A stretch of 44,111 nucleotides of DNA from a virus. The notes beneath the pieces were generated by a model. It saw nothing but the letters and a program-made list of their open reading frames with translations. It was not told the DNA's origin and ran no database searches. Positions within the stretch are counted from its first letter, which is position 1; every line of letters starts with the position of its first letter. The translations under genes and the position numbers were made by a program. Shown piece by piece: positions 1,485 through 25,835 of this stretch. Location of the stretch: positions 1 through 44,111 of the IMG/VR virus record IMGVR_UViG_3300045988_019654. One strand, given 5' to 3'.

Positions 1485-1739
1485 ATGGCAGATAAACCAG
1501 TAACAAGGGAAGAAAAATATCTTGCGTACTTGACAGGTGATTATACAGGCGAAATTCCAAAGCCGATCACGAGAAAAGAAAAATACTTGTATAAACTCTG
1601 TGTAGACGGAATCGGAACCAGCAAAGAAGCTATAGCAGAAGCAGTCCAGACGTACCTGTCCGACAAGGATGTTGGACTTAACATGGATGCTGATGGCTAT
1701 GTGAGTTTAAAAGCAACGGAGGTAAATAATAATGGCTGA
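1485..1739 (+). CDS. Small protein with a tandem TRxEKYL motif, function unknown
   Basis: ATG at 1485 lies behind GAGAGGAG, whereas the track start at 1416 overlaps the portal gene. The motif TREEKYLAYL...TRKEKYLYKL is repeated about 20 aa apart. The gene overlaps the start of the next gene. Confidence 0.6.
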   Translation: MADKPVTREEKYLAYLTGDYTGEIPKPITRKEKYLYKLCVDGIGTSKEAIAEAVQTYLSDKDVGLNMDADGYVSLKATEVNNNG

Positions 1740-4041
1740 TACATTTAAAGGGATAATTACAGCGGATGGAAAGAAGAGACAGTTGCCTTATGAAAACGTT
1801 CTCAAAACGCCTATTTCCGATGAAACATTGTCTGTACAGGGCGGCTTCGCAGATGCTAAAGTAGCAGGGGATAAATTCAAAGAAATAAAGGCAGAAACTG
1901 ATTCACTAAAGGAAGATTTAGGTGGTTTAAACGAATCTATTTTTACTGTTAAGGGAAAAGAAAATCTTTCGTGGATAATTGGAGCAGTAAATAAAGCCGA
2001 CGGTATTTCTGTATCACATACAAAGCGAATTCGCAGTATTCTTTTTCAAGCGGACGGTGGCATTGTGGATATAAATGGCGATTACCAAATTGCCGTTGCT
2101 GTGTATAGCGGAAATAATTTGAATACATTTGAGAAGTATATTGACTTTTCGACTTTGGCATACCGCTTTGAAAAAGGGAAGTATTATGTAATTGTTATTA
2201 AAGCGAATCCAGAAGTAGATTTTTCTGATTCCGATATCAATGATGTGTTAACTCATATATCAATTAGATTTTGGAACGGAGATACAAAAATTGAATCGGT
2301 TGAAAAGAAGAATGACGACTTGAAAAAAAGTGTCGAGCTTGTTAAAAATGTAGGCTTGAATTCTGATGTTATATTTTCTATAGGTGGATTAAACCCTTCT
2401 GATGGAAGCATAAACGATAATATGGAACGACTTTATAGCAATATCATTTTTGCAAGAAAAGGTTCTTCTATTTGCTTGAAATCAAATAACAAATTGAAGT
2501 TTGCGGTATATAAATATTCTGACAAATTTGGGAACACATTTGTTTCTGCAAATGCGTTATCCCTTGATGATTATGAATTTACGGAAGATACCTATGCTAG
2601 AATTTTAATCGAAAGTGGAAACCAAAATGATTTAGAAAAGTTATCTTTTAACATTTTCCAGTTTGATTTAAAAGAATTGAATGACCGTGTTAAGTATACA
2701 GAACTAACACAATGGACTGATAAAGGATATATCTCAATATCGGCTGTCGGTGAGTACACTAAATTTGTAGTCACACTCACATCAGAATGGTCGTTTATGG
2801 TTTTACCAGTTAGTGAGGGAGATAAATTTATTATATCTGGATTTGGTGGAAACAACAGTAAATTATATGCGTTTACTGATAGATTTGGAAAAGTTTTGGA
2901 ACGAACTGAAAAAAGTAGCATAACTCAAAGCCTTGTAATACAAGCACCGGAAAATGGATATGTGATATTTAATGCTTTGAGAAAAAATGAACATTATGCT
3001 ATTAAATATAACGAAAACAATGATGATGCTATTGAAAATAGAAATCTCATTGTACCACCGTACATGCCAGATATAAACAAAGTGATTACATCAGTTCCAA
3101 ATAATAAAACGAGTGCAATGAGTTATGACGAAATAGTATCAGCGTGGGATTCTTTACAAAAGAAATATCCTAATTACATATCTAAAACGAATCTTGGGAA
3201 AGAAACCTCTGGGTCTTTGGATATGTATAGATATGATTTTGTTCCAGAAATTGTATCACTTGAGGCATCAGTTCAGGATGGGATAAACAAGATATACACC
3301 AAAAATGATTATCCTATTGTAATTATGGGTGCTTGTATTCATGGTGCAGAGCGTCCATGTGCAAAGTCGTTATTGAATCTTATGACTTTGATTGCTAATG
3401 CAAAAGATTATTCGATTTTAGGGTGGTTGAGAAACAATATTCACTTTGTGATTATCCCACTGGAAAATCCTTGGGGTTACAAAAATGATAAACGTACAAA
3501 TGTGAATCAAGTTGACTTAAACCGTAATTTTGAACCATTTTGGGAAAAGGGAGAAAATACAACTGAAAACCAACGGTATCGTGGTACAGCTCCTTTATCC
3601 GAAAAAGAAACACAGTATATTGACTCAGTATTAAAAGAATGTGCGGATAAAGCGGTCTGCTATTATAGTTTTCATACACATGGTGTGTTTACGGCTTATA
3701 ATATGATGACTAATTTTTCCAGTCCAGCATTATATCTGTTAAATGAGATGCAGAATATTGGAATGAGTGTAACCAAAATGATAACGTCATCTGGATGGAT
3801 AAATCACAATCTTCCAGAAGATAGCGGGTATATTGGTTGTATGGAAATGGAATATGGAGCCGCAATGGCTTCGTATCAAGCTGCAAAATACAAAATTCCA
3901 TCCGCTTGTCCAGAAGTGATGTATCGTTATTATGATGGTGGCACTGGTGAGGTTTACAATACAGATTTAGACTGTATGAACACGGAATATATGTTATATT
4001 CAGTTACTAATGCTTGTGCAAAATTTTTGTATGGTAATTAA
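1732..4041 (+). CDS. 769-aa protein with a C-terminal zinc carboxypeptidase (peptidase M14) domain
   Basis: RBS GGAGGT. M14 signatures are visible in order: IHGAERP (HxxE zinc ligands), DLNRNF (substrate-binding NR), SFHTHG (third zinc ligand) and MEMEYG (candidate catalytic Glu). The first ~500 aa have no motif I recognise. Confidence 0.75.
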   Translation: MADTFKGIITADGKKRQLPYENVLKTPISDETLSVQGGFADAKVAGDKFKEIKAETDSLKEDLGGLNESIFTVKGKENLSWIIGAVNKADGISVSHTKRIRSILFQADGGIVDINGDYQIAVAVYSGNNLNTFEKYIDFSTLAYRFEKGKYYVIVIKANPEVDFSDSDINDVLTHISIRFWNGDTKIESVEKKNDDLKKSVELVKNVGLNSDVIFSIGGLNPSDGSINDNMERLYSNIIFARKGSSICLKSNNKLKFAVYKYSDKFGNTFVSANALSLDDYEFTEDTYARILIESGNQNDLEKLSFNIFQFDLKELNDRVKYTELTQWTDKGYISISAVGEYTKFVVTLTSEWSFMVLPVSEGDKFIISGFGGNNSKLYAFTDRFGKVLERTEKSSITQSLVIQAPENGYVIFNALRKNEHYAIKYNENNDDAIENRNLIVPPYMPDINKVITSVPNNKTSAMSYDEIVSAWDSLQKKYPNYISKTNLGKETSGSLDMYRYDFVPEIVSLEASVQDGINKIYTKNDYPIVIMGACIHGAERPCAKSLLNLMTLIANAKDYSILGWLRNNIHFVIIPLENPWGYKNDKRTNVNQVDLNRNFEPFWEKGENTTENQRYRGTAPLSEKETQYIDSVLKECADKAVCYYSFHTHGVFTAYNMMTNFSSPALYLLNEMQNIGMSVTKMITSSGWINHNLPEDSGYIGCMEMEYGAAMASYQAAKYKIPSACPEVMYRYYDGGTGEVYNTDLDCMNTEYMLYSVTNACAKFLYGN

Positions 4042-8663: not shown

Positions 8664-9218
8664 ATGAGAGACATTAAAGACTTATGCGCAAGAATCGAAG
8701 ACGAGCTTTCCAAGATCGCTGACAATGGACTGACCACTGGAAATCTGGAAATGACATACAAGCTGATTGATATGTACAAAGATATAAAGAACACGCAGTA
8801 CTGGGATAAGAAAGCGGAGTATTACAACGCTGTCCTTGATGAGATGCGCGGCGGATACAATGACGATTACAGCGAACGTGGAAGAAAGCGCGATAGCATG
8901 GGGAGATACAGCTCAAATGATGGCAGAATGATGCCAGATTACGACAGGGGCAGTTCTTATGCCAGACGCGGTGAACATTATGTCAGAGGGCATTACAGTC
9001 GTTCTGACGGACGGGATGCTTATGACGACTATATGACACAGAAACAGAGTTATCGTTCCGGCAAGTCTGAGGACTGCAAGAGAAAGATGCTTGCCGCTCT
9101 GGAGGAACATCTGGACGAACTCACAACAGAAATGAGCGATATGTCCAAGGATGCAGAGTGCCGAGAGGAACGTGATCTTGTCAAGAGATACGTAGAAAAA
9201 CTCCGGGATATGCTCTGA
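8664..9218 (+). CDS. 185-aa protein with helical ends and an R/S/Y/D/G-rich disordered centre
   Basis: RBS AGGAGGTG sits 5 nt before the ATG at 8664. The central low-complexity tract reads SERGRKRDSMGRYSSNDGRMMPDYDRGSSYARRGEHYVRGHYSRSDGRD. Confidence 0.6.
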   Translation: MRDIKDLCARIEDELSKIADNGLTTGNLEMTYKLIDMYKDIKNTQYWDKKAEYYNAVLDEMRGGYNDDYSERGRKRDSMGRYSSNDGRMMPDYDRGSSYARRGEHYVRGHYSRSDGRDAYDDYMTQKQSYRSGKSEDCKRKMLAALEEHLDELTTEMSDMSKDAECREERDLVKRYVEKLRDML

Positions 9219-9256
9219 AAACGCAAAAAGTGGTAGAGAGGTAGTTAAAATAAATC

Positions 9257-9265
9257 TGTTATAAT
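9257..9265 (+). promoter_or_regulatory. Extended -10 promoter element (TGtTATAAT) at the start of the non-coding island
   Basis: TG-T-TATAAT read directly at 9257..9265. There is no good -35 element. Confidence 0.35.
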
Positions 9266-9338
9266 GTAATTGTGCAGCAGGAAGCACAACGGTTGTCTTA
9301 ACATTTTCGTTTTATCCTCCTTTCTTAAAGTAGCTGGT

Positions 9339-9389
9339 ACACACGCTTTAGTGGAAAGTTTTAAACAGGTTCGAATCCTGTCGTGTGTA
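9339..9389 (+). ncRNA. tRNA-like mini-element A (acceptor stem, D-like hairpin and T arm, no anticodon arm)
   Basis: ACACACG (9339..9345) pairs perfectly with CGTGTGT (9382..9388). The T arm is canonical, ACAGG-TTCGAAT-CCTGT (9365..9381). There is a hairpin CTTT-AGTGG-AAAG. Only 6 nt occupy the place where an anticodon arm belongs, giving 51 nt in total. Confidence 0.45.
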
Positions 9390-9538
9390 TTTGCCGTCTG
9401 GCACGCAAGATGGCACACCTCCTTGATTAAGGTTTTTGTTATTCATACTTTTCTTTAAAAAAAAGAAATAAATATCCGAAACAACTCGTGGCAGGCATGA
9501 CACGTTAAACACCTTGCTAACCCGGGAATCCGGGTTAA

Positions 9539-9612
9539 GGGAATGTAGCTCAGGCGGAAGAGCGGAGAGTGTATAGCTCTTGACGTCGCAGGTTCGAATC
9601 CTGCCTTTCCGA
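9539..9612 (+). tRNA. tRNA-like element B: 74-nt cloverleaf with UAU at positions 34-36 but non-canonical features (possible pseudo-tRNA or mimic)
   Basis: TA-GCTC-AGGCGGAA-GAGC D arm; stem GAGAG/CTCTT with loop TGTATAG; T arm GCAGG-TTCGAAT-CCTGC. The acceptor GGGAATG/CTTTCCG has only 5 of 7 pairs. Position 33 is G where U is invariant. The variable loop is 6 nt and no CCA is encoded. Confidence 0.45.
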
Positions 9613-9689
9613 TTACCCCGCCCGTGGTCCATCGGGCTTAATCCATTTACCTGCGGCGGCAGGTCAATAAACACGACCAGGAGGATGTT

Positions 9690-10322
9690 ATGCAGAAACT
9701 TATTGACACTTTAAAATCATTTGGAATTGAAATCCCGGAGGATAAACAGGCAGATGTAAAGAAAGCACTTTCTGAGAATTACAAGAACGCAAAGGAAGTA
9801 GCGAAAACTCTGTCAAAAGTTGAGGGAGAACGTGATAACTGGAAAGAACGTGCTGAGACAGCAGAAGAAACCTTAAAAGGTTTTGACGGTATCGACCCGG
9901 CAAATATTAAAAGCGAGTTAGAGACTTGGAAACAGAAAGCAGCAGATGCAGAGAAAGAATTCAATGCAAAAATCTACGACCGTGATTTCTCAGATGCTCT
10001 GAAAGCGGCACTCGATGATGTTAAGTTTTCTAGTGAAGCGGCAAAGAAGTCTGTTATGGCGGACATTAAAGAAGCAGGATTGAAGCTGAAAGACGGTAAA
10101 ATTCTCGGACTGAACGACCTGATTCAGCAGATGAAGCAGTCTGACGCATCCGCTTTTGTGGATGAATCTCAGCAGCAGGCTCAGCAGAATCAGGCAAGAT
10201 TTACCACTCATGTTGGACAGCAGCAGACGCCGGGAAGTATGACCAAAAAAGATATTGAAGCAATCAAAGACCCGTCCGAGAGACAGGCTGCAATTGCTCA
10301 GAATATCCAGTTGTTCCAGTGA
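9690..10322 (+). CDS. Scaffolding protein (Phage_GP20-like)
   Basis: RBS AGGAGGA. A 210-aa acidic, helical, coiled-coil protein lying directly upstream of the major capsid gene. Confidence 0.75.
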   Translation: MQKLIDTLKSFGIEIPEDKQADVKKALSENYKNAKEVAKTLSKVEGERDNWKERAETAEETLKGFDGIDPANIKSELETWKQKAADAEKEFNAKIYDRDFSDALKAALDDVKFSSEAAKKSVMADIKEAGLKLKDGKILGLNDLIQQMKQSDASAFVDESQQQAQQNQARFTTHVGQQQTPGSMTKKDIEAIKDPSERQAAIAQNIQLFQ

Positions 10323-10400: not shown

Positions 10401-11570
10401 ATGGCAGCAAAAGCTAATCTTATTATGACTAATGATATTCAGGTAACGGCACGTGAGATTGACTTCGTAACCAGATTTGAAAGAAACTGGCAGCACTTAC
10501 GTGATATTCTGGGTATCATGAGACCTATCAAAAAACAGCCGGGTGCTGTACTCAAGTCCAAATACGCAGAGGGTACTTTACAGAGTGGAAAAGTAGCAGA
10601 GGGTGAGGAAATCCCTTACAGCAAATTCGTTGTAAAAGAAAAGACCTATGCGGAAATGACTATTGAGAAGTACGCAAAGGCTGTATCTATCGAAGCAATC
10701 AAGGATCACGGTTATGAGAACGCTGTTCAGATGACTGACGATGAATTCCTTTTCCAGCTTCAGACTGATGTTACCGACAGATTTTACGACTATCTGAAAA
10801 CTGGTACACTTACTTCCACAGAAACTACATTCCAGATGGCTCTGGCAATGGCTAAAGGCCGTGTAGAAAACAAATTCAAGCAAATGCACAGAAATGTGAC
10901 TGGCGTTGTTGGATTTGTGAATATTCTTGACGTATATGAATACCTCGGAGCAGCTGAGATCACTATTCAGAACCAGTTCGGATTCCAGTACATGAAGGAC
11001 TTTATGGGATTCAATACAATCTTCTTGCTGTCCGACAGCGAGATTCCGAGAGGACAGGTTATCGCAACTCCTGTTGAGAACATCGTCCTGTACTATGTAG
11101 ATCCGAACGAATCTGACTTCGCAAGAGCAGGACTTGTATACACCGTATCTGGCGAGACAAACCTGATCGGATTCCATACGCAGGGCAACTACCACACCGC
11201 AGTGTCCGAAGCGTTCGCAGTTATGGGGCTTACTCTTTTTGCGGAGTACATTGACGCAATCGCAGTAATCACCATTGATGAGACACCAACCCTTGGCACT
11301 CTGACAGTAAATTCCGTGGCTGGAACAGCAAGCGGTGATACAAAAATCACTGTAAATCCAGCTAAAGAAAATGCCAACAACGTATATAAATACAAAGTTG
11401 CAGCAGGTGCAGTAACTGTTGGATATGGACAGAACCTCAGAAACTGGACTACATGGGACGGAAAAGCTGACATTAAGGCAGCAACCGGACAGAAGATCAC
11501 AGTGGTTGAGTGTGATGGAACATACAAGGCACTGAATTCCGGAAGCGCAAGCGTAACAGCGAAATCATAA
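10401..11570 (+). CDS. Major capsid protein with a C-terminal Ig-like extension
   Basis: 389 aa, positioned after the scaffold gene. The last ~95 aa (TLGTLTVNSVAGTASGDTKITV...ITVVECDG) look like a bacterial Ig-like domain. Confidence 0.8.
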   Translation: MAAKANLIMTNDIQVTAREIDFVTRFERNWQHLRDILGIMRPIKKQPGAVLKSKYAEGTLQSGKVAEGEEIPYSKFVVKEKTYAEMTIEKYAKAVSIEAIKDHGYENAVQMTDDEFLFQLQTDVTDRFYDYLKTGTLTSTETTFQMALAMAKGRVENKFKQMHRNVTGVVGFVNILDVYEYLGAAEITIQNQFGFQYMKDFMGFNTIFLLSDSEIPRGQVIATPVENIVLYYVDPNESDFARAGLVYTVSGETNLIGFHTQGNYHTAVSEAFAVMGLTLFAEYIDAIAVITIDETPTLGTLTVNSVAGTASGDTKITVNPAKENANNVYKYKVAAGAVTVGYGQNLRNWTTWDGKADIKAATGQKITVVECDGTYKALNSGSASVTAKS

Positions 11571-23640: not shown

Positions 23641-23894
23641 ATATTGCATCAGATTCGGAATGATAAGAATATTCTGGTTAGTCACAAATTAGTCACAAGT
23701 GAAGACTGGAACACCGCATAAACAAAGGATTTTTTAAAAAATTCATTAAAATTAAATTATTGAAAATGCTTTTTCAGATTCTCCTGTAAAATGCGTAAAA
23801 TCCAGTAAAATAAAGGTTTTGCAGACTTTTGGTAGAATGATTAAGACGGTTTAAAAATGGTAAAAAGTGGAACGGTTAGTCACAGTTAGTCACA
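23641..23894. promoter_or_regulatory. attP region with candidate integrase arm-type repeats
   Basis: TTAGTCACA occurs at 23678, 23689, 23876 and 23886, all in the same orientation. GTAAAAT occurs three times, at 23786, 23795 and 23805. The region is AT-rich and lies immediately 3' of int. Confidence 0.55.
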
Positions 23895-25051
23895 AACGGA
23901 ACTTTTATTTTCTCTATTTCTTTCCGGAGTTCTTCCAGTGTCCTGTGACCGTACACAGCGTTCGTAACATCGTTTCCAAACGAATGTCCTAACATTCTCT
24001 TCCGGTCGTTCTCTCGTACGCCGTATCTTTCGCACAGGGTAGAAAAGGTATGCCGACAATCGTGCGGCGTGTGCTTCGGGTTGCCGACTATTCCTAAACG
24101 TTCCAGTGTAGGATAGAACAACGCTTTTCTGTGGTGCTGCTGAGTACACACGCATAATTTCCCACCTTGTGTCAGCACTTTCTGCTCAACAAAACGGTAC
24201 ACAGCTGGATGTATCGGAACGATTCTGTTCTTGCCCGCTTTTGTTTTAATGCCGCCCTGGAAGCACTTATCCTCTAGGTTGGTTGTAAGTTTTAGCACTT
24301 CGCCAATCCTCCATCCAGAATAACACATGATTAGTATGAGTTGCACTTCTGGATCATCAGCATTGTTCCACAAAATTTGCAGTTCCTGGTCAGAAAAAGG
24401 TGTGCCATGCTCCGTATCATTATTTGCGTTAACTTTTACGTATAAGGCCTTGTTTTCTGATACGATTTCTGAATAAATGGCATACTTATACATTTGCTTA
24501 AAGAGAGTTAAAATAATTGCTTTGCTCTGCTTTTTAAGAGTGCATTCATCTATTACGTCTTGCAAATCAGGGGCTTTTAAATCTTCAAATGTGTGATTGT
24601 ACAATGTTTTACAGTTTGAGTAAGCTGTTCTGTATGATTCCATCGAACTATAAGACGCTTTTGTTCCATCTGGAAATTTCCATGCGTAGAATTGTTCATA
24701 TACCTCTGAAAACGTCAATTTGTGCGTTTCTGGGTGCTTTTCCTCTGCACCCTTAAATGTATTGTAGTCTGACAGAATACGGCTTACAAGGGCGTCTGTG
24801 TCCGTTGTAGGGGTAATCTCAAGCTCTTTTTCCATCCCTGGCTTGTACGTCCCAGCTTTGTAAGCTGTCAGGACGGCGAATCCTTTCAGATAGTCGTCAA
24901 CGTAGCAGATCGCAGGTGGACGGATCGCTTTTCCTGTTGCATCAATCGTTGCCGGCGGGTGTACTGCATAGCAGTTTCTTCGACCCTTACCGAGATAACG
25001 GATAGACCCGAAACTATTCGGCAGTTTCGGATATTTCTTTCTTTTTGCCAT
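23876..25051 (-). CDS. int: Tyrosine recombinase / integrase
   Basis: ATG at 25051 follows AAGGAGGAAG. The C-terminal catalytic pattern reads GWRIGEVLKL ... HDCRHTF ... LGHS...VYGH. Confidence 0.9.
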   Translation of the reverse strand: MAKRKKYPKLPNSFGSIRYLGKGRRNCYAVHPPATIDATGKAIRPPAICYVDDYLKGFAVLTAYKAGTYKPGMEKELEITPTTDTDALVSRILSDYNTFKGAEEKHPETHKLTFSEVYEQFYAWKFPDGTKASYSSMESYRTAYSNCKTLYNHTFEDLKAPDLQDVIDECTLKKQSKAIILTLFKQMYKYAIYSEIVSENKALYVKVNANNDTEHGTPFSDQELQILWNNADDPEVQLILIMCYSGWRIGEVLKLTTNLEDKCFQGGIKTKAGKNRIVPIHPAVYRFVEQKVLTQGGKLCVCTQQHHRKALFYPTLERLGIVGNPKHTPHDCRHTFSTLCERYGVRENDRKRMLGHSFGNDVTNAVYGHRTLEELRKEIEKIKVPFVTNCD

Positions 25052-25068
25052 GATCTTCCTCCTTGTGC

Positions 25069-25098
25069 AAAAACAGCCCCTGCTGTTTAAGCAGGAGC
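25069..25098 (-). terminator. Terminator between the Mrr-like gene and int (hairpin is bidirectional)
   Basis: A 9-bp stem GCTCCTGCT / AGCAGGGGC (one G.U pair) is followed by TGTTTTT on the minus strand. A T-run is also present on the plus strand. Confidence 0.65.
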
Positions 25099-25106
25099 GG
25101 TTCTTT

Positions 25107-25835
25107 TTAACGTGAATTTTGTACAAATTTCTCTAGCTGATTTCTGTCCCACAAAAGAACCTGATTTACGGCAGCTAATTCCTGAGCAGATTTTGTAAAA
25201 AATCGGTTTGTCAGAACTGCAGCAACGTGGCAATGATAGAATGTCTTTCCAGCAAACGCCTCCTGTACTGCTTTGTTGCCAATGTCCTTAGAATAGCACT
25301 TACACTGTATTCCGTATTTTACGCCGCCTTTTTCAGCTAAAACATCAATTCCTTGATCTCCGCTACCCTGTGTTACGCTGACATTATAGAAACCATTGTT
25401 TTTAAGCAGGTCTGCACAGTAGTACTCAAAGTCGTGTCCTTCCATTGTGTCATAGACCGGAAGTTGTGGCTCCGGTACCGTGGGCGGATTAGGTATATCT
25501 TCTGATGTCCAATTAGGAGCAGGAGTGTAGTTATCATGGCTGTATGATTGTGGAATAATTGGTTCAACATCGTCAGAGTCAGTAGAATGTGCTCTGATAA
25601 TGCTTGAAAAAGTGCCGAATATAGTAGAAATAATGGCACACGCAACAGCTATTAGTATAGCACCGGGCACAAACATGACTATTCCCGCAAAGATTCCTGA
25701 ACCTATTTCAACAGCATCCCGAGTGCTGCTATTTGCCAAACCAGTTACAGTAATAAATGTCATAAATACAAGCCATAGGAATGTAAGAAATGCTGCAAGC
25801 TTGTGTTTTTTATAAAAATTAAGTACGTGCTTCAT
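25107..25835 (-). CDS. Membrane-anchored restriction-endonuclease-like protein (N-terminal TM helices plus an Mrr_cat PD-(D/E)xK domain)
   Basis: Two or three hydrophobic helices lie in aa 13-80, then a P-rich linker. The C-terminal region GHDFEYYCADLL...GDQGIDVLAEKGG.KYGIQCKCYS...VQEAF fits the Mrr catalytic-domain pattern (D ... QxK). Confidence 0.7.
   Translation of the reverse strand: MKHVLNFYKKHKLAAFLTFLWLVFMTFITVTGLANSSTRDAVEIGSGIFAGIVMFVPGAILIAVACAIISTIFGTFSSIIRAHSTDSDDVEPIIPQSYSHDNYTPAPNWTSEDIPNPPTVPEPQLPVYDTMEGHDFEYYCADLLKNNGFYNVSVTQGSGDQGIDVLAEKGGVKYGIQCKCYSKDIGNKAVQEAFAGKTFYHCHVAAVLTNRFFTKSAQELAAVNQVLLWDRNQLEKFVQNSR

What the first reader, a model, noticed from the sequence alone, without database searches (positions are those of the whole stretch)
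9219..9689. Structured 471-nt non-coding island with two aberrant tRNA-like elements inside the head-morphogenesis operon
There is no credible ORF between the 185-aa gene and the scaffold gene. The only track ORF here (9348..9674, minus strand) is built out of tRNA-like sequence.

The island opens with an extended -10 element, TGtTATAAT (9257..9265), and is packed with helices.

- Element A (9339..9389): a perfect acceptor-type stem ACACACG/CGTGTGT, a textbook T arm (ACAGG-TTCGAAT-CCTGT) and a small D-like hairpin. It has no anticodon arm and is 51 nt long.
- Element B (9539..9612): cloverleaf-sized with good D and T arms. Its acceptor stem has G1.G72 and U6.U67 mismatches. It has G at the invariant U33, UAU at the anticodon position, a 6-nt variable loop and no CCA.
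- Additional perfect hairpins lie at 9393..9414, 9519..9536, 9620..9637 and 9649..9664.

Two degenerate-but-structured tRNA mimics under a phage promoter are not ordinary phage tRNA genes. Candidate roles are decoys or substrate mimics for host tRNA-targeting defences (anticodon nucleases, tRNA-sensing systems), a Y-RNA/YrlA-like tRNA-mimic module, or part of a large ornate phage RNA of the kind found next to tRNAs in Firmicutes prophages.
Basis: partly seen in the sequence, partly recalled or inferred. Interest (0 to 1): 0.8.

Follow-up and report, generated by a model that had tools for sequence, protein, structure and literature searches.

The report
Swappable tRNA-like RNA island before capsid genes
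The gap between two head genes of this temperate gut phage is a real, conserved non-coding RNA island: a miniature tRNA without an anticodon arm, plus an odd tRNA sitting in a slot that sister phages fill with other tRNAs, the RAGATH-21 motif or the giant ROOL RNA; what the island does has not been shown.

Summary
Every coordinate checks, no ORF is credible, and the two identical T-arm 14-mers are far beyond chance.

Element B (9539-9612) is called tRNA-Ile(UAU) by ARAGORN. It passes Rfam tRNA weakly (38.4 bits; cut-off 29). It has G33, G1.G72 and U6.U67.

Element A (9339-9389) is not a tRNA gene (21.1 bits). It is an acceptor/D/T "mini-tRNA".

About 360 related loci add three things:
1. The interval is the leader of the scaffold/major-capsid genes in temperate gut phages whose relatives lie in Lachnospiraceae assemblies.
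2. Element A is conserved with compensatory changes. RAGATH-21 takes its exact place in sister phages. A model of Element A detects some RAGATH-21 copies.
3. Element B occupies a slot with near-invariant flanks. Sister phages fill it with at least 12 tRNA or tRNA-like types, and in three relatives with ROOL. One tRNA body carries many anticodon arms. The non-U33 loop (consensus CGCAUAG) recurs on four bodies.

Best reading (inferred, about 0.4): a co-transcribed RNA island whose tRNA-shaped modules are cut out by RNase P and RNase Z, leaving a hairpin-led scaffold mRNA. The decoy idea is neither excluded nor supported. YrlA, tmRNA and ROOL membership fail for this window.

The parts
9257..9265 (+). 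Extended -10 promoter-like element TGtTATAAT
   Evidence: Read directly. TCTGTTATAATG is kept in all Element-A-type leaders (one has TGCTATAAT). An equivalent TGgTAAAAT or TACTATAAT sits at the same distance from the upstream stop codon in two leader types that otherwise cannot be aligned. The two-hexamer scan found no -35/-10 pair. Transcription was not tested.
9270..9289 (+). Leader hairpin starting about 5 nt after the -10 element
   Evidence: Folds at -6.7 kcal/mol, z = -3.06. Conserved in Element-A-type loci. Flagged as weakly terminator-like by the consensus scan.
9314..9324 (+). Box 1, ATCCTCCTTTC, resembling the anti-Shine-Dalgarno 3' end of 16S rRNA
   Evidence: A CCTCC box precedes the tRNA-like or RAGATH-21 element in every lineage examined. 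The minimum-energy and centroid folds pair 9313-9321 with the scaffold gene's Shine-Dalgarno sequence. That is a prediction only, without covariation.
9339..9389 (+). Element A: tRNA-like minihelix lacking an anticodon arm (7-bp acceptor stem, 4-bp D stem with GG loop, 5-bp T arm with UUCGAAU loop, discriminator A, no CCA)
   Evidence: RF00005 scores 21.1 bits, below threshold. Across 29 distinct homologues, 98.6% of cells are paired, with compensatory changes at acceptor pair 3 and T-stem pair 1. Model R1 finds relatives in distant lineages: L218 at 34.3 bits, L089/L090 at 33.5 bits. RAGATH-21 occupies the same slot in sister phages.
9393..9414 (+). 7-bp hairpin GCCGUCU/AGAUGGC
   Evidence: z = -3.05. 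99% of cells paired. Changes are one-sided only, to G.U. The loop is inverted in L052/L061.
9416..9425 (+). Box 2, CACCTCCTTG, the second anti-Shine-Dalgarno-like box
   Evidence: Conserved in both the Element-A-type and the RAGATH-21-type leaders.
9476..9538 (+). Conserved 5' flank of the tRNA slot, including hairpin CCCGG-GAAU-CCGGG (9519-9536)
   Evidence: Recognisable in 309 loci as 90 variants. The core ACCTTGCTAACCCGGGAATCCGGGTT is almost invariant and shows no covariation. blastn against GenBank phages matches only from about 9476 onwards.
9539..9612 (+). Element B: 74-nt tRNA, anticodon UAU (9572-9574), loop UGUAUAG with G33 (9571), G1.G72 and U6.U67 mismatches, 6-nt variable loop, no CCA
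   Evidence: ARAGORN calls tRNA-Ile(tat). RF00005 scores 38.4 bits against 29. It belongs to a set of 42 distinct elements that share one acceptor/D/T body, with variation concentrated in the anticodon arm. Exactly the same 74 nt occur in L369 and L370, which are only 92-94% identical overall.
9613..9689 (+). Conserved 3' flank, the proximal 5' UTR of the scaffold gene: UUACC junction, hairpin 1 (9620-9637), hairpin 2 (9649-9664), Shine-Dalgarno AGGAGGA (9679-9685)
   Evidence: 63 variants in about 380 loci, nearly invariant even where the scaffold protein is only 56-72% identical. Hairpin 1 is 100% paired with two covarying pairs. Hairpin 2 is 96% paired.
9690..10322 (+). Scaffold protein gene (context)
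   Evidence: PF06810 Phage_scaffold, 80.9 bits; phrog_194. The next gene is the major head protein, phrog_544.

Best explanation
The interval is this phage's allele of a modular non-coding RNA island. The island forms the long leader of the scaffold/major-capsid late transcript in a large family of temperate human-gut phages, whose more distant relatives lie in Lachnospiraceae genome assemblies.

Order of parts (shown): extended -10 element; leader hairpin; CCUCC box 1; a mini-tRNA (Element A, or RAGATH-21 in sister phages); hairpin; CCUCC box 2; an invariant 5' flank; a slot for one or more exchangeable tRNAs or tRNA-likes (Element B here); an invariant two-hairpin 3' flank that ends in the scaffold gene's Shine-Dalgarno sequence.

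Proposed mechanism (inferred):
1. The island is transcribed together with the scaffold and capsid genes.
2. Host RNase P cuts at the 5' end of each tRNA-shaped module. RNase Z cuts at the 3' end, because CCA is never encoded and U follows the discriminator base.
3. This releases small stable RNAs (Element A and Element B; ROOL and further tRNAs in relatives).
4. The scaffold-capsid mRNA is left beginning at the conserved UUACC two-hairpin leader, freed from the upstream anti-Shine-Dalgarno boxes.

On this reading, selection acts first on tRNA shape (acceptor stem, T arm, elbow) and on the flanks. That would explain why the anticodon arm can be swapped, deformed or absent.

Whether the released Element B also decodes AUA, or resists or absorbs a tRNA nuclease, is left open.
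For: Position and orientation:
- The island is always on the sense strand between the upstream gene and the scaffold Shine-Dalgarno sequence.
- No terminator-like hairpin with a T run lies between the last tRNA and the gene.

The junction is fixed and the occupant is not:
- 73 distinct 'last elements' all abut U/C-UACC plus hairpin 1.
- They include Tyr, Met/CAU, Thr, Gln, Val, Ile, Asn, Cys, Ser and Lys tRNAs, 68-nt deformed forms, and forms that ARAGORN does not call because the anticodon arm is truncated.
- Three more tRNAs with a C in the first flank position end the same way but were not in that set.

What is conserved is what RNase P and RNase Z recognise (the recognition rules are established knowledge, recalled from memory):
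- In 42 body-1 elements the acceptor stem, D loop GG and T arm are near-invariant or covary (GCAGG/CCUGC to GGUGG/CCACC).
- Entropy sits in the anticodon arm.
- Element A keeps the acceptor stem, D stem/GG loop and T arm with compensatory changes.

CCA is never encoded, and U follows the discriminator in Element A (AUUUG), in Element C and in the slot tRNAs.

The flanks are more conserved than the coding sequence:
- The 3' flank is unchanged in lineages with 56-72% scaffold protein identity.
- Hairpin 1 shows three covarying versions.

The arrangement recurs in other lineages and contexts:
- A CCUCC box followed by a mini-tRNA, then tRNA(s) or GP20-b, then the scaffold gene is seen in L089, L210-217, L218-222 and L290-292.
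- A tRNA-like with the CGCAUAG loop ends 4 nt before the Shine-Dalgarno sequence of an unrelated gene in L391, L394, L397 and L419.

The fold of 9270-9700 pairs box 1 with the Shine-Dalgarno sequence.
Against: - There are no transcript data. The promoter, co-transcription and every cleavage step are inferred.
- The box 1 to Shine-Dalgarno pairing is only a thermodynamic prediction, with no covariation beyond the CCUCC/GGAGG core. The whole-region z-score is only -1.94.
- If only shape mattered, anticodon loops would decay. Many alleles instead keep canonical 7-nt loops with U33 and R37.
- The odd loop YRYAUAG is kept on four different bodies with covarying stems. This points to selection on the anticodon loop itself, which this model does not explain.
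- After an RNase Z cut, 7 unpaired nt would precede hairpin 1. That may be too many for 5' protection.
- L174 lacks Element A and RAGATH-21 altogether, so that module is dispensable.
Confidence: 0.4

Rival explanations
1. Counter-defence RNAs. Element B and its relatives would be phage tRNAs, or tRNA mimics, whose anticodon loops are altered. They would either escape host tRNA-cleaving defences and so replace depleted host tRNAs, or act as decoys that soak up those nucleases. Examples of such defences are anticodon nucleases, retron or PARIS-type effectors, HEPN RNases and VapC-like toxins. Element A and RAGATH-21 would be further mimics. The CCUCC boxes could mimic the 16S rRNA 3' end for toxins that cleave rRNA.
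For: - The anticodon arm turns over very fast on a constant body among phages with 96-100% identical scaffold proteins. This is the pattern expected of an arms-race locus.
- The non-U33 loop CGCAUAG (variants CACAUAG, CGUAUAG, UGUAUAG) is kept on four unrelated bodies with covarying stems.
- In the one capped metagenome scan, that loop appeared on tRNA-like sequences only in human-gut contigs up to 61 kb. The other 108 of 120 pattern hits were not tRNAs.
- The window's exact allele is 100% identical in two genomes that are 6-8% diverged elsewhere.
- There is precedent for phage tRNAs that escape tRNA-targeting defences through anticodon-loop changes or by supplying a specific tRNA (PMC10264068, PMC11555353; titles and abstracts only).
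Against: - No target nuclease is known for these hosts.
- No anti-defence or tRNA-repair gene lies nearby.
- The island sits in the late structural operon, so it would be expressed late, whereas counter-defence is usually needed early. This objection falls if the extended -10 promoter is constitutive.
- G33 should cripple decoding, which argues against the 'replacement tRNA' version.
- A decoy role does not explain the invariant flanks or the fixed junction with the Shine-Dalgarno leader.
Confidence: 0.25
2. An ordinary phage tRNA gene plus a relic. Element B would be a working AUA-decoding tRNA-Ile that supplements host supply. The CAU alleles would be read as AUA after lysidine modification. 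Element A would be a decayed tRNA gene without function.
For: - ARAGORN and Rfam both call Element B a tRNA.
- AUA makes up 20% of the Ile codons in the phage's + strand ORFs.
- C34 to U34 changes (CGCAUAG to CGUAUAG or UGUAUAG) would keep AUA reading if C34 is lysidinylated. A canonical Ile-UAU allele (CUUAUAA) also exists in the slot.
- Many slot tRNAs read A-ending codons (UGU, UUG, UAC, UAU, UUU), as is usual for phage tRNAs.
Against: - Element B has G33 in place of the universal U33, a G1.G72 mismatch, a U6.U67 mismatch and a 6-nt variable loop. Its 38.4 bits compare with 51-74 bits for canonical tRNAs in these loci.
- Near-identical phages carry different isotypes, so the tRNA's identity does not track codon usage.
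- Element A is not decaying. It is 98.6% paired, shows compensatory changes, keeps an invariant elbow, and has relatives in lineages with about 56-66% scaffold identity.
Confidence: 0.15
3. A purely cis-acting 5' UTR switch. The anti-Shine-Dalgarno boxes and the tRNA-like folds would control scaffold and capsid translation or transcript elongation without being excised. The mechanism could be Shine-Dalgarno sequestration relieved by a factor that binds the tRNA-like elbow, or one responding to temperature or a ligand, as proposed for the GP20-b motif found upstream of the same gene family.
For: - Box 1 pairs with the Shine-Dalgarno sequence in the predicted fold.
- The candidate cis-regulatory motif GP20-b (RF03003) occupies the equivalent place in related lineages.
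- In the 3' flank, hairpin 2 and an alternative helix GGUC/GACC that abuts the Shine-Dalgarno sequence share bases (9659-9663). This would allow a switch (seen in the sequences).
Against: - Bona fide tRNAs and a 560-nt ROOL lie in the same leader. These are gene products, not switches.
- The distance from box 1 to the Shine-Dalgarno sequence follows the island length, which ranges from 335 to 1150 nt.
- No covariation supports the long-range helix.
Confidence: 0.1
4. A fragment or reduced form of a large ornate RNA of the ROOL or GOLLD type, acting as part of an RNA assembly.
For: ROOL lies in this very slot in L047, L075 and L080. ROOL and GOLLD are known to sit near phage tRNA islands (PMC5737381, PMC12286853).
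Against: The window has no ROOL or GOLLD match even at E <= 10. ROOL is present in only 2 of 162 distinct islands. The window's island is among the shortest alleles.
Confidence: 0.03

Closest known systems
RAGATH-21 RNA (Rfam RF03097; function unknown)
   Same: - It occupies exactly the slot of Element A in sister phages, between the same CCUCC box 1 and the hairpin plus box 2.
- It has the same overall topology: a long closing helix stacked directly on a short hairpin with a 7-nt loop.
- It shares the strings CUUAAU..AAA and GUUGAAAA.
- In L254/L265 the closing helix GCGCACG/CGUGCGU is identical to the Element A acceptor stem.
- The Element A model aligns full length to these copies at 24.4 bits, E about 1e-4.
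   Different: - The Rfam RAGATH-21 model does not hit Element A at E <= 10.
- Element A lacks the P2 hairpin and the GAAA mini-hairpin.
- Its loop is a canonical T loop, UUCGAAU, rather than UGCAAUU.
- It has a D loop with GG.
- It scores as a partial tRNA (21.1 bits), which RAGATH-21 does not.
- The L001-type RAGATH-21 is not detected by the Element A model.
Phage tRNA islands that accompany ROOL and GOLLD RNAs (PMC5737381, PMC12286853)
   Same: The setting is a temperate phage with a cluster of tRNAs and tRNA-likes on one strand. ROOL is present in the same slot in relatives.
   Different: - This window has no ROOL.
- The island sits in a defined position, the leader of the scaffold gene, with invariant flanks.
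- It behaves as an exchangeable cassette.

I found these last two features in neither of those papers, which I only searched for the terms tRNA, phage, ROOL and RAGATH.
tRNA-like processing signals in longer transcripts: the mitochondrial tRNA punctuation model, plant mitochondrial t-elements, and mascRNA from MALAT1 (recalled from memory)
   Same: These are acceptor/T-arm mimics, often lacking a proper anticodon arm. They lie inside a longer transcript next to an mRNA end and are cut by RNase P and RNase Z. The geometry of Element A (7 + 5 bp stack, elbow, no CCA, U after the discriminator) fits such substrates.
   Different: Those systems are organellar or eukaryotic. Processing has not been shown here.
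Phage tRNAs with anticodon-loop changes that evade tRNA-targeting defences (PMC10264068; also PMC11555353)
   Same: These are phage-encoded tRNAs whose anticodon loops deviate from the canonical pattern. The slot shows rapid variation between related phages.
   Different: - The loops here break the universal U33 rule and may close to a 5-nt loop (C32-G38).
- No cognate nuclease is known.
- The location is the late operon leader.
GP20-b RNA (Rfam RF03003; candidate cis-regulator upstream of the same scaffold gene family, PF06810)
   Same: It occupies the same place, directly before the scaffold gene's Shine-Dalgarno sequence, in related lineages. There too it is preceded by a tRNA or tRNA-like.
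   Different: The window's 3' flank gives no GP20-b hit and has different hairpins.
YrlA / bacterial Y RNA tRNA-like module
   Same: A tRNA mimic with acceptor, D and T arms but no anticodon loop.
   Different: It scores 17.5 bits against a gathering score of 69. There is no Ro-binding helix, and no Ro or RtcB gene was seen.

Membership tests
tRNA (RF00005) - Element B | Covariance-model score at or above the gathering threshold, and a call by a tRNA finder | tested here: met
   38.4 bits against 29. ARAGORN calls tRNA-Ile(tat), 74 nt.
tRNA (RF00005) - Element B | Canonical 7-nt anticodon loop with U33 and a purine at position 37 | tested here: not met
   The loop is UGUAUAG, with G33 at 9571. 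A37 is present. U32 and G38 could pair, leaving a 5-nt loop.
tRNA (RF00005) - Element B | Fully paired 7-bp acceptor stem | tested here: not met
   G1.G72 and U6.U67 are marked as non-standard pairs in the cmscan alignment. U6.U67 is shared by most body-1 relatives. G1 is specific to this allele.
tRNA (RF00005) - Element B | Aminoacylation and use in translation | not testable with these tools
   Needs charging assays or tRNA sequencing.
tRNA (RF00005) - Element A | Score at or above the gathering threshold, and presence of an anticodon arm | tested here: not met
   21.1 bits against 29. The 18 model positions of the anticodon arm are replaced by 2 bases. ARAGORN makes no call.
RAGATH-21 (RF03097) - Element A | Match to the Rfam covariance model | tested here: not met
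   No RAGATH-21 match in 9150-9750 at E <= 10. Sister loci score 67-94 bits.
RAGATH-21 (RF03097) - Element A | Same genomic slot and flanking elements as accepted members | tested here: met
   Both lie between CCUCCUUUC and the hairpin plus CACCUCCUUG, downstream of an extended -10 element and upstream of the same 5' flank. The recombinant L253 joins RAGATH-21 to the Element-A-type hairpin.
RAGATH-21 (RF03097) - Element A | Detectable sequence and structure relatedness in the reverse direction (Element A model against RAGATH-21 copies) | tested here: inconclusive
   R1 hits the RAGATH-21-like elements of L254/L265 at 24.3-24.4 bits (E about 1e-4 to 7e-4) and of L222 at 18.4 bits (E 0.004-0.03). 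It does not hit the L001, L296 or L097 copies.
ROOL (RF03087) | Match to the covariance model | tested here: not met
   None in the window. Present in L047 at 383.7 bits.
YrlA / Y RNA (RF02553) | Match to the covariance model; Ro-binding helix; linkage to rsr or rtcB | tested here: not met
   17.5 bits against 69. No TROVE or RtcB domain among the 26 ORFs scanned; the remaining ORFs were not scanned.
tmRNA | tRNA-like domain plus tag reading frame | tested here: not met
   ARAGORN finds no tmRNA in the window.
Anti-nuclease phage tRNAs or decoys | Anticodon-loop deviation that is conserved rather than random | tested here: met
   The YRYAUAG loop occurs on four bodies with covarying stems. The window allele is identical in L369 and L370.
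Anti-nuclease phage tRNAs or decoys | A cognate host tRNA-targeting nuclease, and resistance to it or titration of it | not testable with these tools
   The host is unknown beyond Lachnospiraceae. No biochemical data are available.
RNase P / RNase Z processing signal (tRNA punctuation) | Intact acceptor/T-arm stack and elbow, no encoded CCA, U after the discriminator | tested here: met
   Element A has a 7 + 5 bp stack, an invariant D-loop GG and a UUCGAAU T loop, and is followed by AUUUG. Element B has a conserved body and is followed by A-UUACC.
RNase P / RNase Z processing signal (tRNA punctuation) | Observed cleavage at the predicted ends | not testable with these tools
   Needs end mapping or in vitro cleavage.

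The most novel reading that the evidence does not exclude
Element A and RAGATH-21 are two forms of one family of tRNA-derived acceptor/T-arm modules. This would give RAGATH-21, an orphan motif, its first structural assignment as a tRNA mimic whose D loop carries an inserted hairpin.

Together with a phage-specific class of tRNAs built to lack U33 (loop CGCAUAG, on four bodies), they would form an exchangeable toolkit in the capsid-operon leader. The toolkit would act on host tRNA-handling enzymes, either as processing punctuation that licenses capsid translation or as bait for tRNA- and rRNA-cleaving defence nucleases.
Probability: 0.3. Interest if true: 0.75.

Novelty: new variant of a known kind. 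Interest (0 to 1): 0.6.

Why it matters
ROOL, GOLLD and the RAGATH motifs are conserved phage RNAs with no known function. This locus places ROOL, RAGATH-21, a mini-tRNA and a set of odd tRNAs in one defined, exchangeable slot. The slot lies in the leader of the most highly expressed late genes of a very common family of human-gut phages. Nature has therefore already made near-isogenic allelic series, with or without each module.

It matters for three reasons:
1. It gives a concrete structural hypothesis for RAGATH-21: that it is a tRNA mimic.
2. It defines a phage-specific tRNA class that breaks the universal U33 rule and is under selection.
3. It offers a testable model in which tRNA-processing enzymes punctuate a bacterial-virus mRNA, as they do in mitochondria.

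If the counter-defence reading is right instead, the slot would be a readable record of the tRNA-targeting immunity present in gut Clostridia.

Tried and rejected
- **Protein-coding readings.** The minus-strand ORFs 9348-9674 and 9245-9418 and the plus-strand ORF 9270-9458 have no Pfam match. Small minus-strand ORFs behind the two Shine-Dalgarno-like boxes were read by eye in three leader types. Frames are not conserved, because poly-A/T run lengths vary and there are 7-nt indels. Rejected.
- **attP or integration remnant.** Both elements keep both acceptor strands, and the integrase is 14 kb away at 23879-25126. Rejected.
- **tmRNA, YrlA, GOLLD or ROOL in the window.** No matches, or matches far below threshold.
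- **Initiator tRNA reading of the 1:72 mismatch.** The anticodon stem lacks the three G-C pairs, and the D stem has C11-G24. Rejected by inspection.
- **The CGCAUAG loop as a normal host tRNA feature.** In the metagenome scan with GGWAGAGC-N6-CGCATAG, 10 of 120 loci gave a CGCAUAG-loop tRNA-like and 2 gave ordinary tRNAs in which the pattern falls outside the anticodon loop. The six CGCAUAG loci whose surroundings I read lie on human-gut contigs of 4-61 kb. The other 108 are not tRNAs; the six printed lie in sequence with no tRNA features.
- **Covariation for the box 1 to Shine-Dalgarno helix and for the 5' flank stem CGUG/CACG.** None was found.
- **Literature.** No paper in the library names RAGATH-21. 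The supplement of the paper that reported ROOL among 224 candidate RNA motifs is not held.
- **Element B folded alone.** It does not give a cloverleaf as its minimum-energy structure. This was judged uninformative.
- **A regex count of RAGATH-21 was faulty** (one A short). The '-' class there is mostly RAGATH-21-type by inspection, so only approximate proportions are given.
Full report
**1. Checking the observation**

- TGtTATAAT lies at 9257-9265.
- Element A lies at 9339-9389 and Element B at 9539-9612.
- Perfect hairpins lie at 9393-9414, 9519-9536, 9620-9637 and 9649-9664.

ARAGORN finds a single tRNA in the whole 44-kb window, at 9539-9612, and calls it tRNA-Ile with anticodon UAU. Rfam's tRNA model scores it 38.4 bits against a gathering score of 29. 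Nothing else in the window reaches any Rfam threshold.

With relaxed thresholds, Element A matches the tRNA model end to end at 21.1 bits. The whole anticodon arm (18 model positions) is replaced by two bases. YrlA reaches only 17.5 bits against a gathering score of 69. ROOL, GOLLD and tmRNA do not appear.

The two elements share the 14-mer AGGTTCGAATCCTG. Two copies are found where 0.01 is expected.

No ORF in the interval has a Pfam match. The comparative data below rule out coding.

The downstream genes are a PF06810 scaffold protein and a major head protein. The window is a complete temperate phage with integrase, repressor, primase-polymerase, terminase and portal genes.

**2. Relatives show a modular island**

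blastn against GenBank phages found six human-gut phage scaffolds that match only the 3' half of the interval. Further searches raised the set of related loci to about 360. They used:
- the scaffold protein;
- the 3'-flank sequence;
- two more distant scaffold proteins from Lachnospiraceae assemblies.

Among phages whose scaffold proteins are 96-100% identical, the interval ranges from 335 to 1150 nt, with 162 distinct versions.

The order of parts is constant:
1. an extended -10 element;
2. a leader hairpin;
3. a CCUCCUUUC box;
4. a structured module;
5. a hairpin;
6. a CACCUCCUUG box;
7. a nearly invariant 63-nt 5' flank;
8. one or more tRNAs or tRNA-likes;
9. a nearly invariant 77-nt 3' flank that runs into the scaffold gene's Shine-Dalgarno sequence.

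**3. Element A**

Twenty-nine distinct homologues align without difficulty. The acceptor, D, T and downstream hairpin helices are 98.6% paired. Sliding the 3' partners by 1-3 columns drops pairing to 35-56%.

Two pairs change on both sides: acceptor pair 3 (G-C in 25 sequences, A-U in 4) and T-stem pair 1 (A-U in 17, G-C in 6). The D-loop GG and the T loop UUCGAAU are conserved.

Divergence is low (91% mean column identity), so the covariation signal is modest. It is consistent, though.

A covariance model built from 18 of these sequences (R1) finds full-length relatives in lineages whose scaffold proteins are only about 56-66% identical. These are L218 (34.3 bits), L089/L090 (33.5 bits), L217 and L291. 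In each case the element follows a CCUCC box and lies upstream of the scaffold gene.

Element A is therefore a conserved 'mini-tRNA': acceptor stem, elbow and discriminator, with no anticodon arm and no CCA. It is not a decaying gene.

**4. Element A is allelic with RAGATH-21**

In roughly one third of the islands, the place of Element A is taken by Rfam's RAGATH-21 motif at 75-94 bits against a gathering score of 70.3. The same boxes flank it.
- L253 is a recombinant that joins RAGATH-21 to the hairpin normally found after Element A.
- L174 has neither module.

The RAGATH-21-like elements of L254/L265 score 67-69 bits on the Rfam model. They have a closing helix identical to the Element A acceptor stem. 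R1 matches them full length at 24.4 bits, E about 1e-4. In that alignment:
- the Element A D stem CUUU/AAAG aligns with CCUU..GAGG of RAGATH-21, and the RAGATH-21 P2 hairpin falls in the 'D loop';
- the T arm aligns with the 7-nt-loop hairpin that stacks directly on P1.

L222's RAGATH-21 is matched weakly (18.4 bits). The L001-type copies are not matched. The Rfam RAGATH-21 model does not see Element A.

My reading is that the two are related forms of a tRNA-like module. The evidence is positional and partly model-based, and it is not conclusive.

**5. Element B and its slot**

The last element before the 3' flank differs among sister phages. ARAGORN calls Tyr, Met(CAU), Thr, Gln (two anticodons), Val, Ile, Asn, Cys, Ser and Lys. 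There are also forms it does not call. Three relatives hold a complete ROOL RNA between two tRNAs.

Forty-two distinct elements share one body: NGGAAUG-UA-GCUCAG...GCAGGUUCGAUUCCUGC-CUUUCCG-A. Sequence entropy is concentrated in the anticodon arm and the variable loop. The T stem covaries (GCAGG/CCUGC to GGUGG/CCACC).

On this one body sit:
- canonical loops for Val (CUUACAA), Ile (CUUAUAA) and Thr (AUUGUAA);
- a 68-nt Tyr/Cys form with overlapping D and anticodon stems;
- a form with a truncated arm;
- a 74-nt class with the loop C-G-C-A-U-A-G.

The window's Element B belongs to that last class, as the variant UGUAUAG with G1. The same CGCAUAG loop occurs on three other unrelated bodies, and the anticodon stem covaries (GAGAG/CUCUU, GAGGA/UCCUU, GAGAA/UUCUU). 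The non-U33 loop is therefore selected, not accidental.

The exact 74-nt window allele recurs unchanged in two viral contigs that are 92-94% identical overall. They carry different Element A variants, and one has a different 3' hairpin.

The capped metagenome scan found such loops on tRNA-like sequences only in human-gut contigs of 4-61 kb. One further family places the element 4 nt before the Shine-Dalgarno sequence of an unrelated gene.

**6. The flanks**

The 3' flank is almost unchanged in about 380 loci, including Lachnospiraceae prophages whose scaffold proteins are 56-72% identical.
- Hairpin 1 (9620-9637) is 100% paired and has three covarying versions: GCCAG/CUGGC, GCCCG/CGGGC (the window) and GGCAG/CUGCC.
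- Hairpin 2 is 96% paired.

Every tRNA or tRNA-like in the slot ends at its discriminator, followed by U(or C)-UACC. CCA is never encoded.

The 5' flank is conserved at the sequence level and shows no covariation.

In other lineages, Rfam's GP20-b motif sits directly before the scaffold gene's Shine-Dalgarno sequence. There too it is preceded by a tRNA or tRNA-like.

**7. How it most likely works**

Shown:
- the island is conserved, modular and on the sense strand;
- no intrinsic terminator lies before the scaffold gene;
- the conserved features are the acceptor/T-arm/elbow geometry and the junctions;
- the anticodon arm is free to vary.

Inferred:
- The island is transcribed with the scaffold and capsid genes.
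- The tRNA-shaped modules are excised by RNase P and by RNase Z. RNase Z is the enzyme that handles CCA-less precursors with U after the discriminator in Bacillus (established knowledge, recalled from memory).
- The mature scaffold mRNA begins at the conserved two-hairpin leader.

The fold of 9270-9700 pairs box 1 with the Shine-Dalgarno sequence. Processing would then also remove a translational block. This last step rests on a thermodynamic prediction alone.

I put this model at about 0.4. It does not explain why the odd CGCAUAG-type loop is kept. That is the best argument for the counter-defence rival (about 0.25), for which published precedent exists (PMC10264068, PMC11555353). A plain AUA-decoding tRNA plus a relic (about 0.15) is weakened by G33, by the acceptor mismatches and by the evident selection on Element A.

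**8. Comparison with known systems, and novelty**

The setting, a phage tRNA island that can carry ROOL, is known (PMC5737381, PMC12286853). RAGATH-21 and GP20-b are catalogued motifs of unknown function.

I found the following neither in Rfam nor in the paper library:
- the mini-tRNA family and its allelism with RAGATH-21;
- the fixed cassette slot with invariant flanks in the scaffold leader;
- the phage-specific non-U33 tRNA class.

I rate it a new variant of a known kind, with interest 0.6. It is a well-supported comparative finding with clear experiments attached, but no function has been demonstrated.

Noticed in passing
L047 2284-2843 (also L075 and L080 by sequence): A complete ROOL RNA (RF03087, 383.7 bits) lies inside the same intergenic slot, between a tRNA-Met and a tRNA-Ser. 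These phages are otherwise near-identical to the window.
   Followed up: partly
window 9314-9324 and 9416-9425: Two sense-strand boxes, ATCCTCCTTTC and CACCTCCTTG, resemble the anti-Shine-Dalgarno 3' end of 16S rRNA. They flank Element A, or RAGATH-21 in relatives. A CCTCC box precedes the tRNA-like element in every lineage looked at. Box 1 pairs with the scaffold Shine-Dalgarno sequence in the predicted fold. Their function is unexplained.
   Followed up: partly
L007 and many others, first about 70 nt after the 5' flank (e.g. TGGAATGTACGCTAGTGGAAAACTGACAGAGTCGCACTCTGGTCTCCGGTTCGATTCCGGGCGCTCCGC): A third tRNA-like ('Element C') has a 5-nt loop UCGCA where the anticodon loop should be, and ARAGORN does not call it. 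L210-214 carry a relative that lacks a T arm. It is absent from the window.
   Followed up: no
L052 and L061, the hairpin equivalent to window 9393-9414: The 8-nt loop is present as its reverse complement (GGCACGCA to TGCGTGCC) while the stem is unchanged. This is an inversion within a hairpin.
   Followed up: no
L174 (island of 335 nt) and L253: L174 lacks both Element A and RAGATH-21, so box 1 is joined directly to the 5' flank. L253 combines RAGATH-21 with the hairpin typical of Element A islands. The modules recombine independently.
   Followed up: partly
L391, L394, L397, L419 (human-gut metagenome contigs): A fourth tRNA body (CCATGCA...TGCATGG) carries the same CGCAUAG loop. It ends 4 nt before the Shine-Dalgarno sequence of an unrelated gene (GGGTTACGGAGGAATTTTGCATG), at the end of another island of tRNA-likes.
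   Followed up: no
L089 1718-1814 and L090 644-740; L089/L090 2359-2423; L210, L215, L217: A skipping-rope RNA (RF02924, 53.5 bits) lies upstream in the same region. GP20-b (RF03003, 40-46 bits) lies directly before the scaffold gene in more distant phage lineages.
   Followed up: no
window 25110-25835 (-): An Mrr-type restriction endonuclease domain protein (PF04471, 95 bits) sits next to the integrase (23879-25126). It may be a lysogeny-expressed defence gene carried by the prophage.
   Followed up: no
window 10401-11567 (+) and 1732-4038 (+): The major head protein carries a C-terminal S-layer SbsC_C domain (PF18316, 56 bits). A 769-aa protein in the head module carries a zinc carboxypeptidase M14 domain.
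   Followed up: no
window 9659-9678: In the 3' flank, hairpin 2 (ACCUGC/GCAGGU) and a possible helix GGUC/GACC that abuts the Shine-Dalgarno sequence share bases. They exclude each other, so they could form a switch. The A-to-G variant (GACC to GGCC) keeps the pairing as U.G.
   Followed up: no
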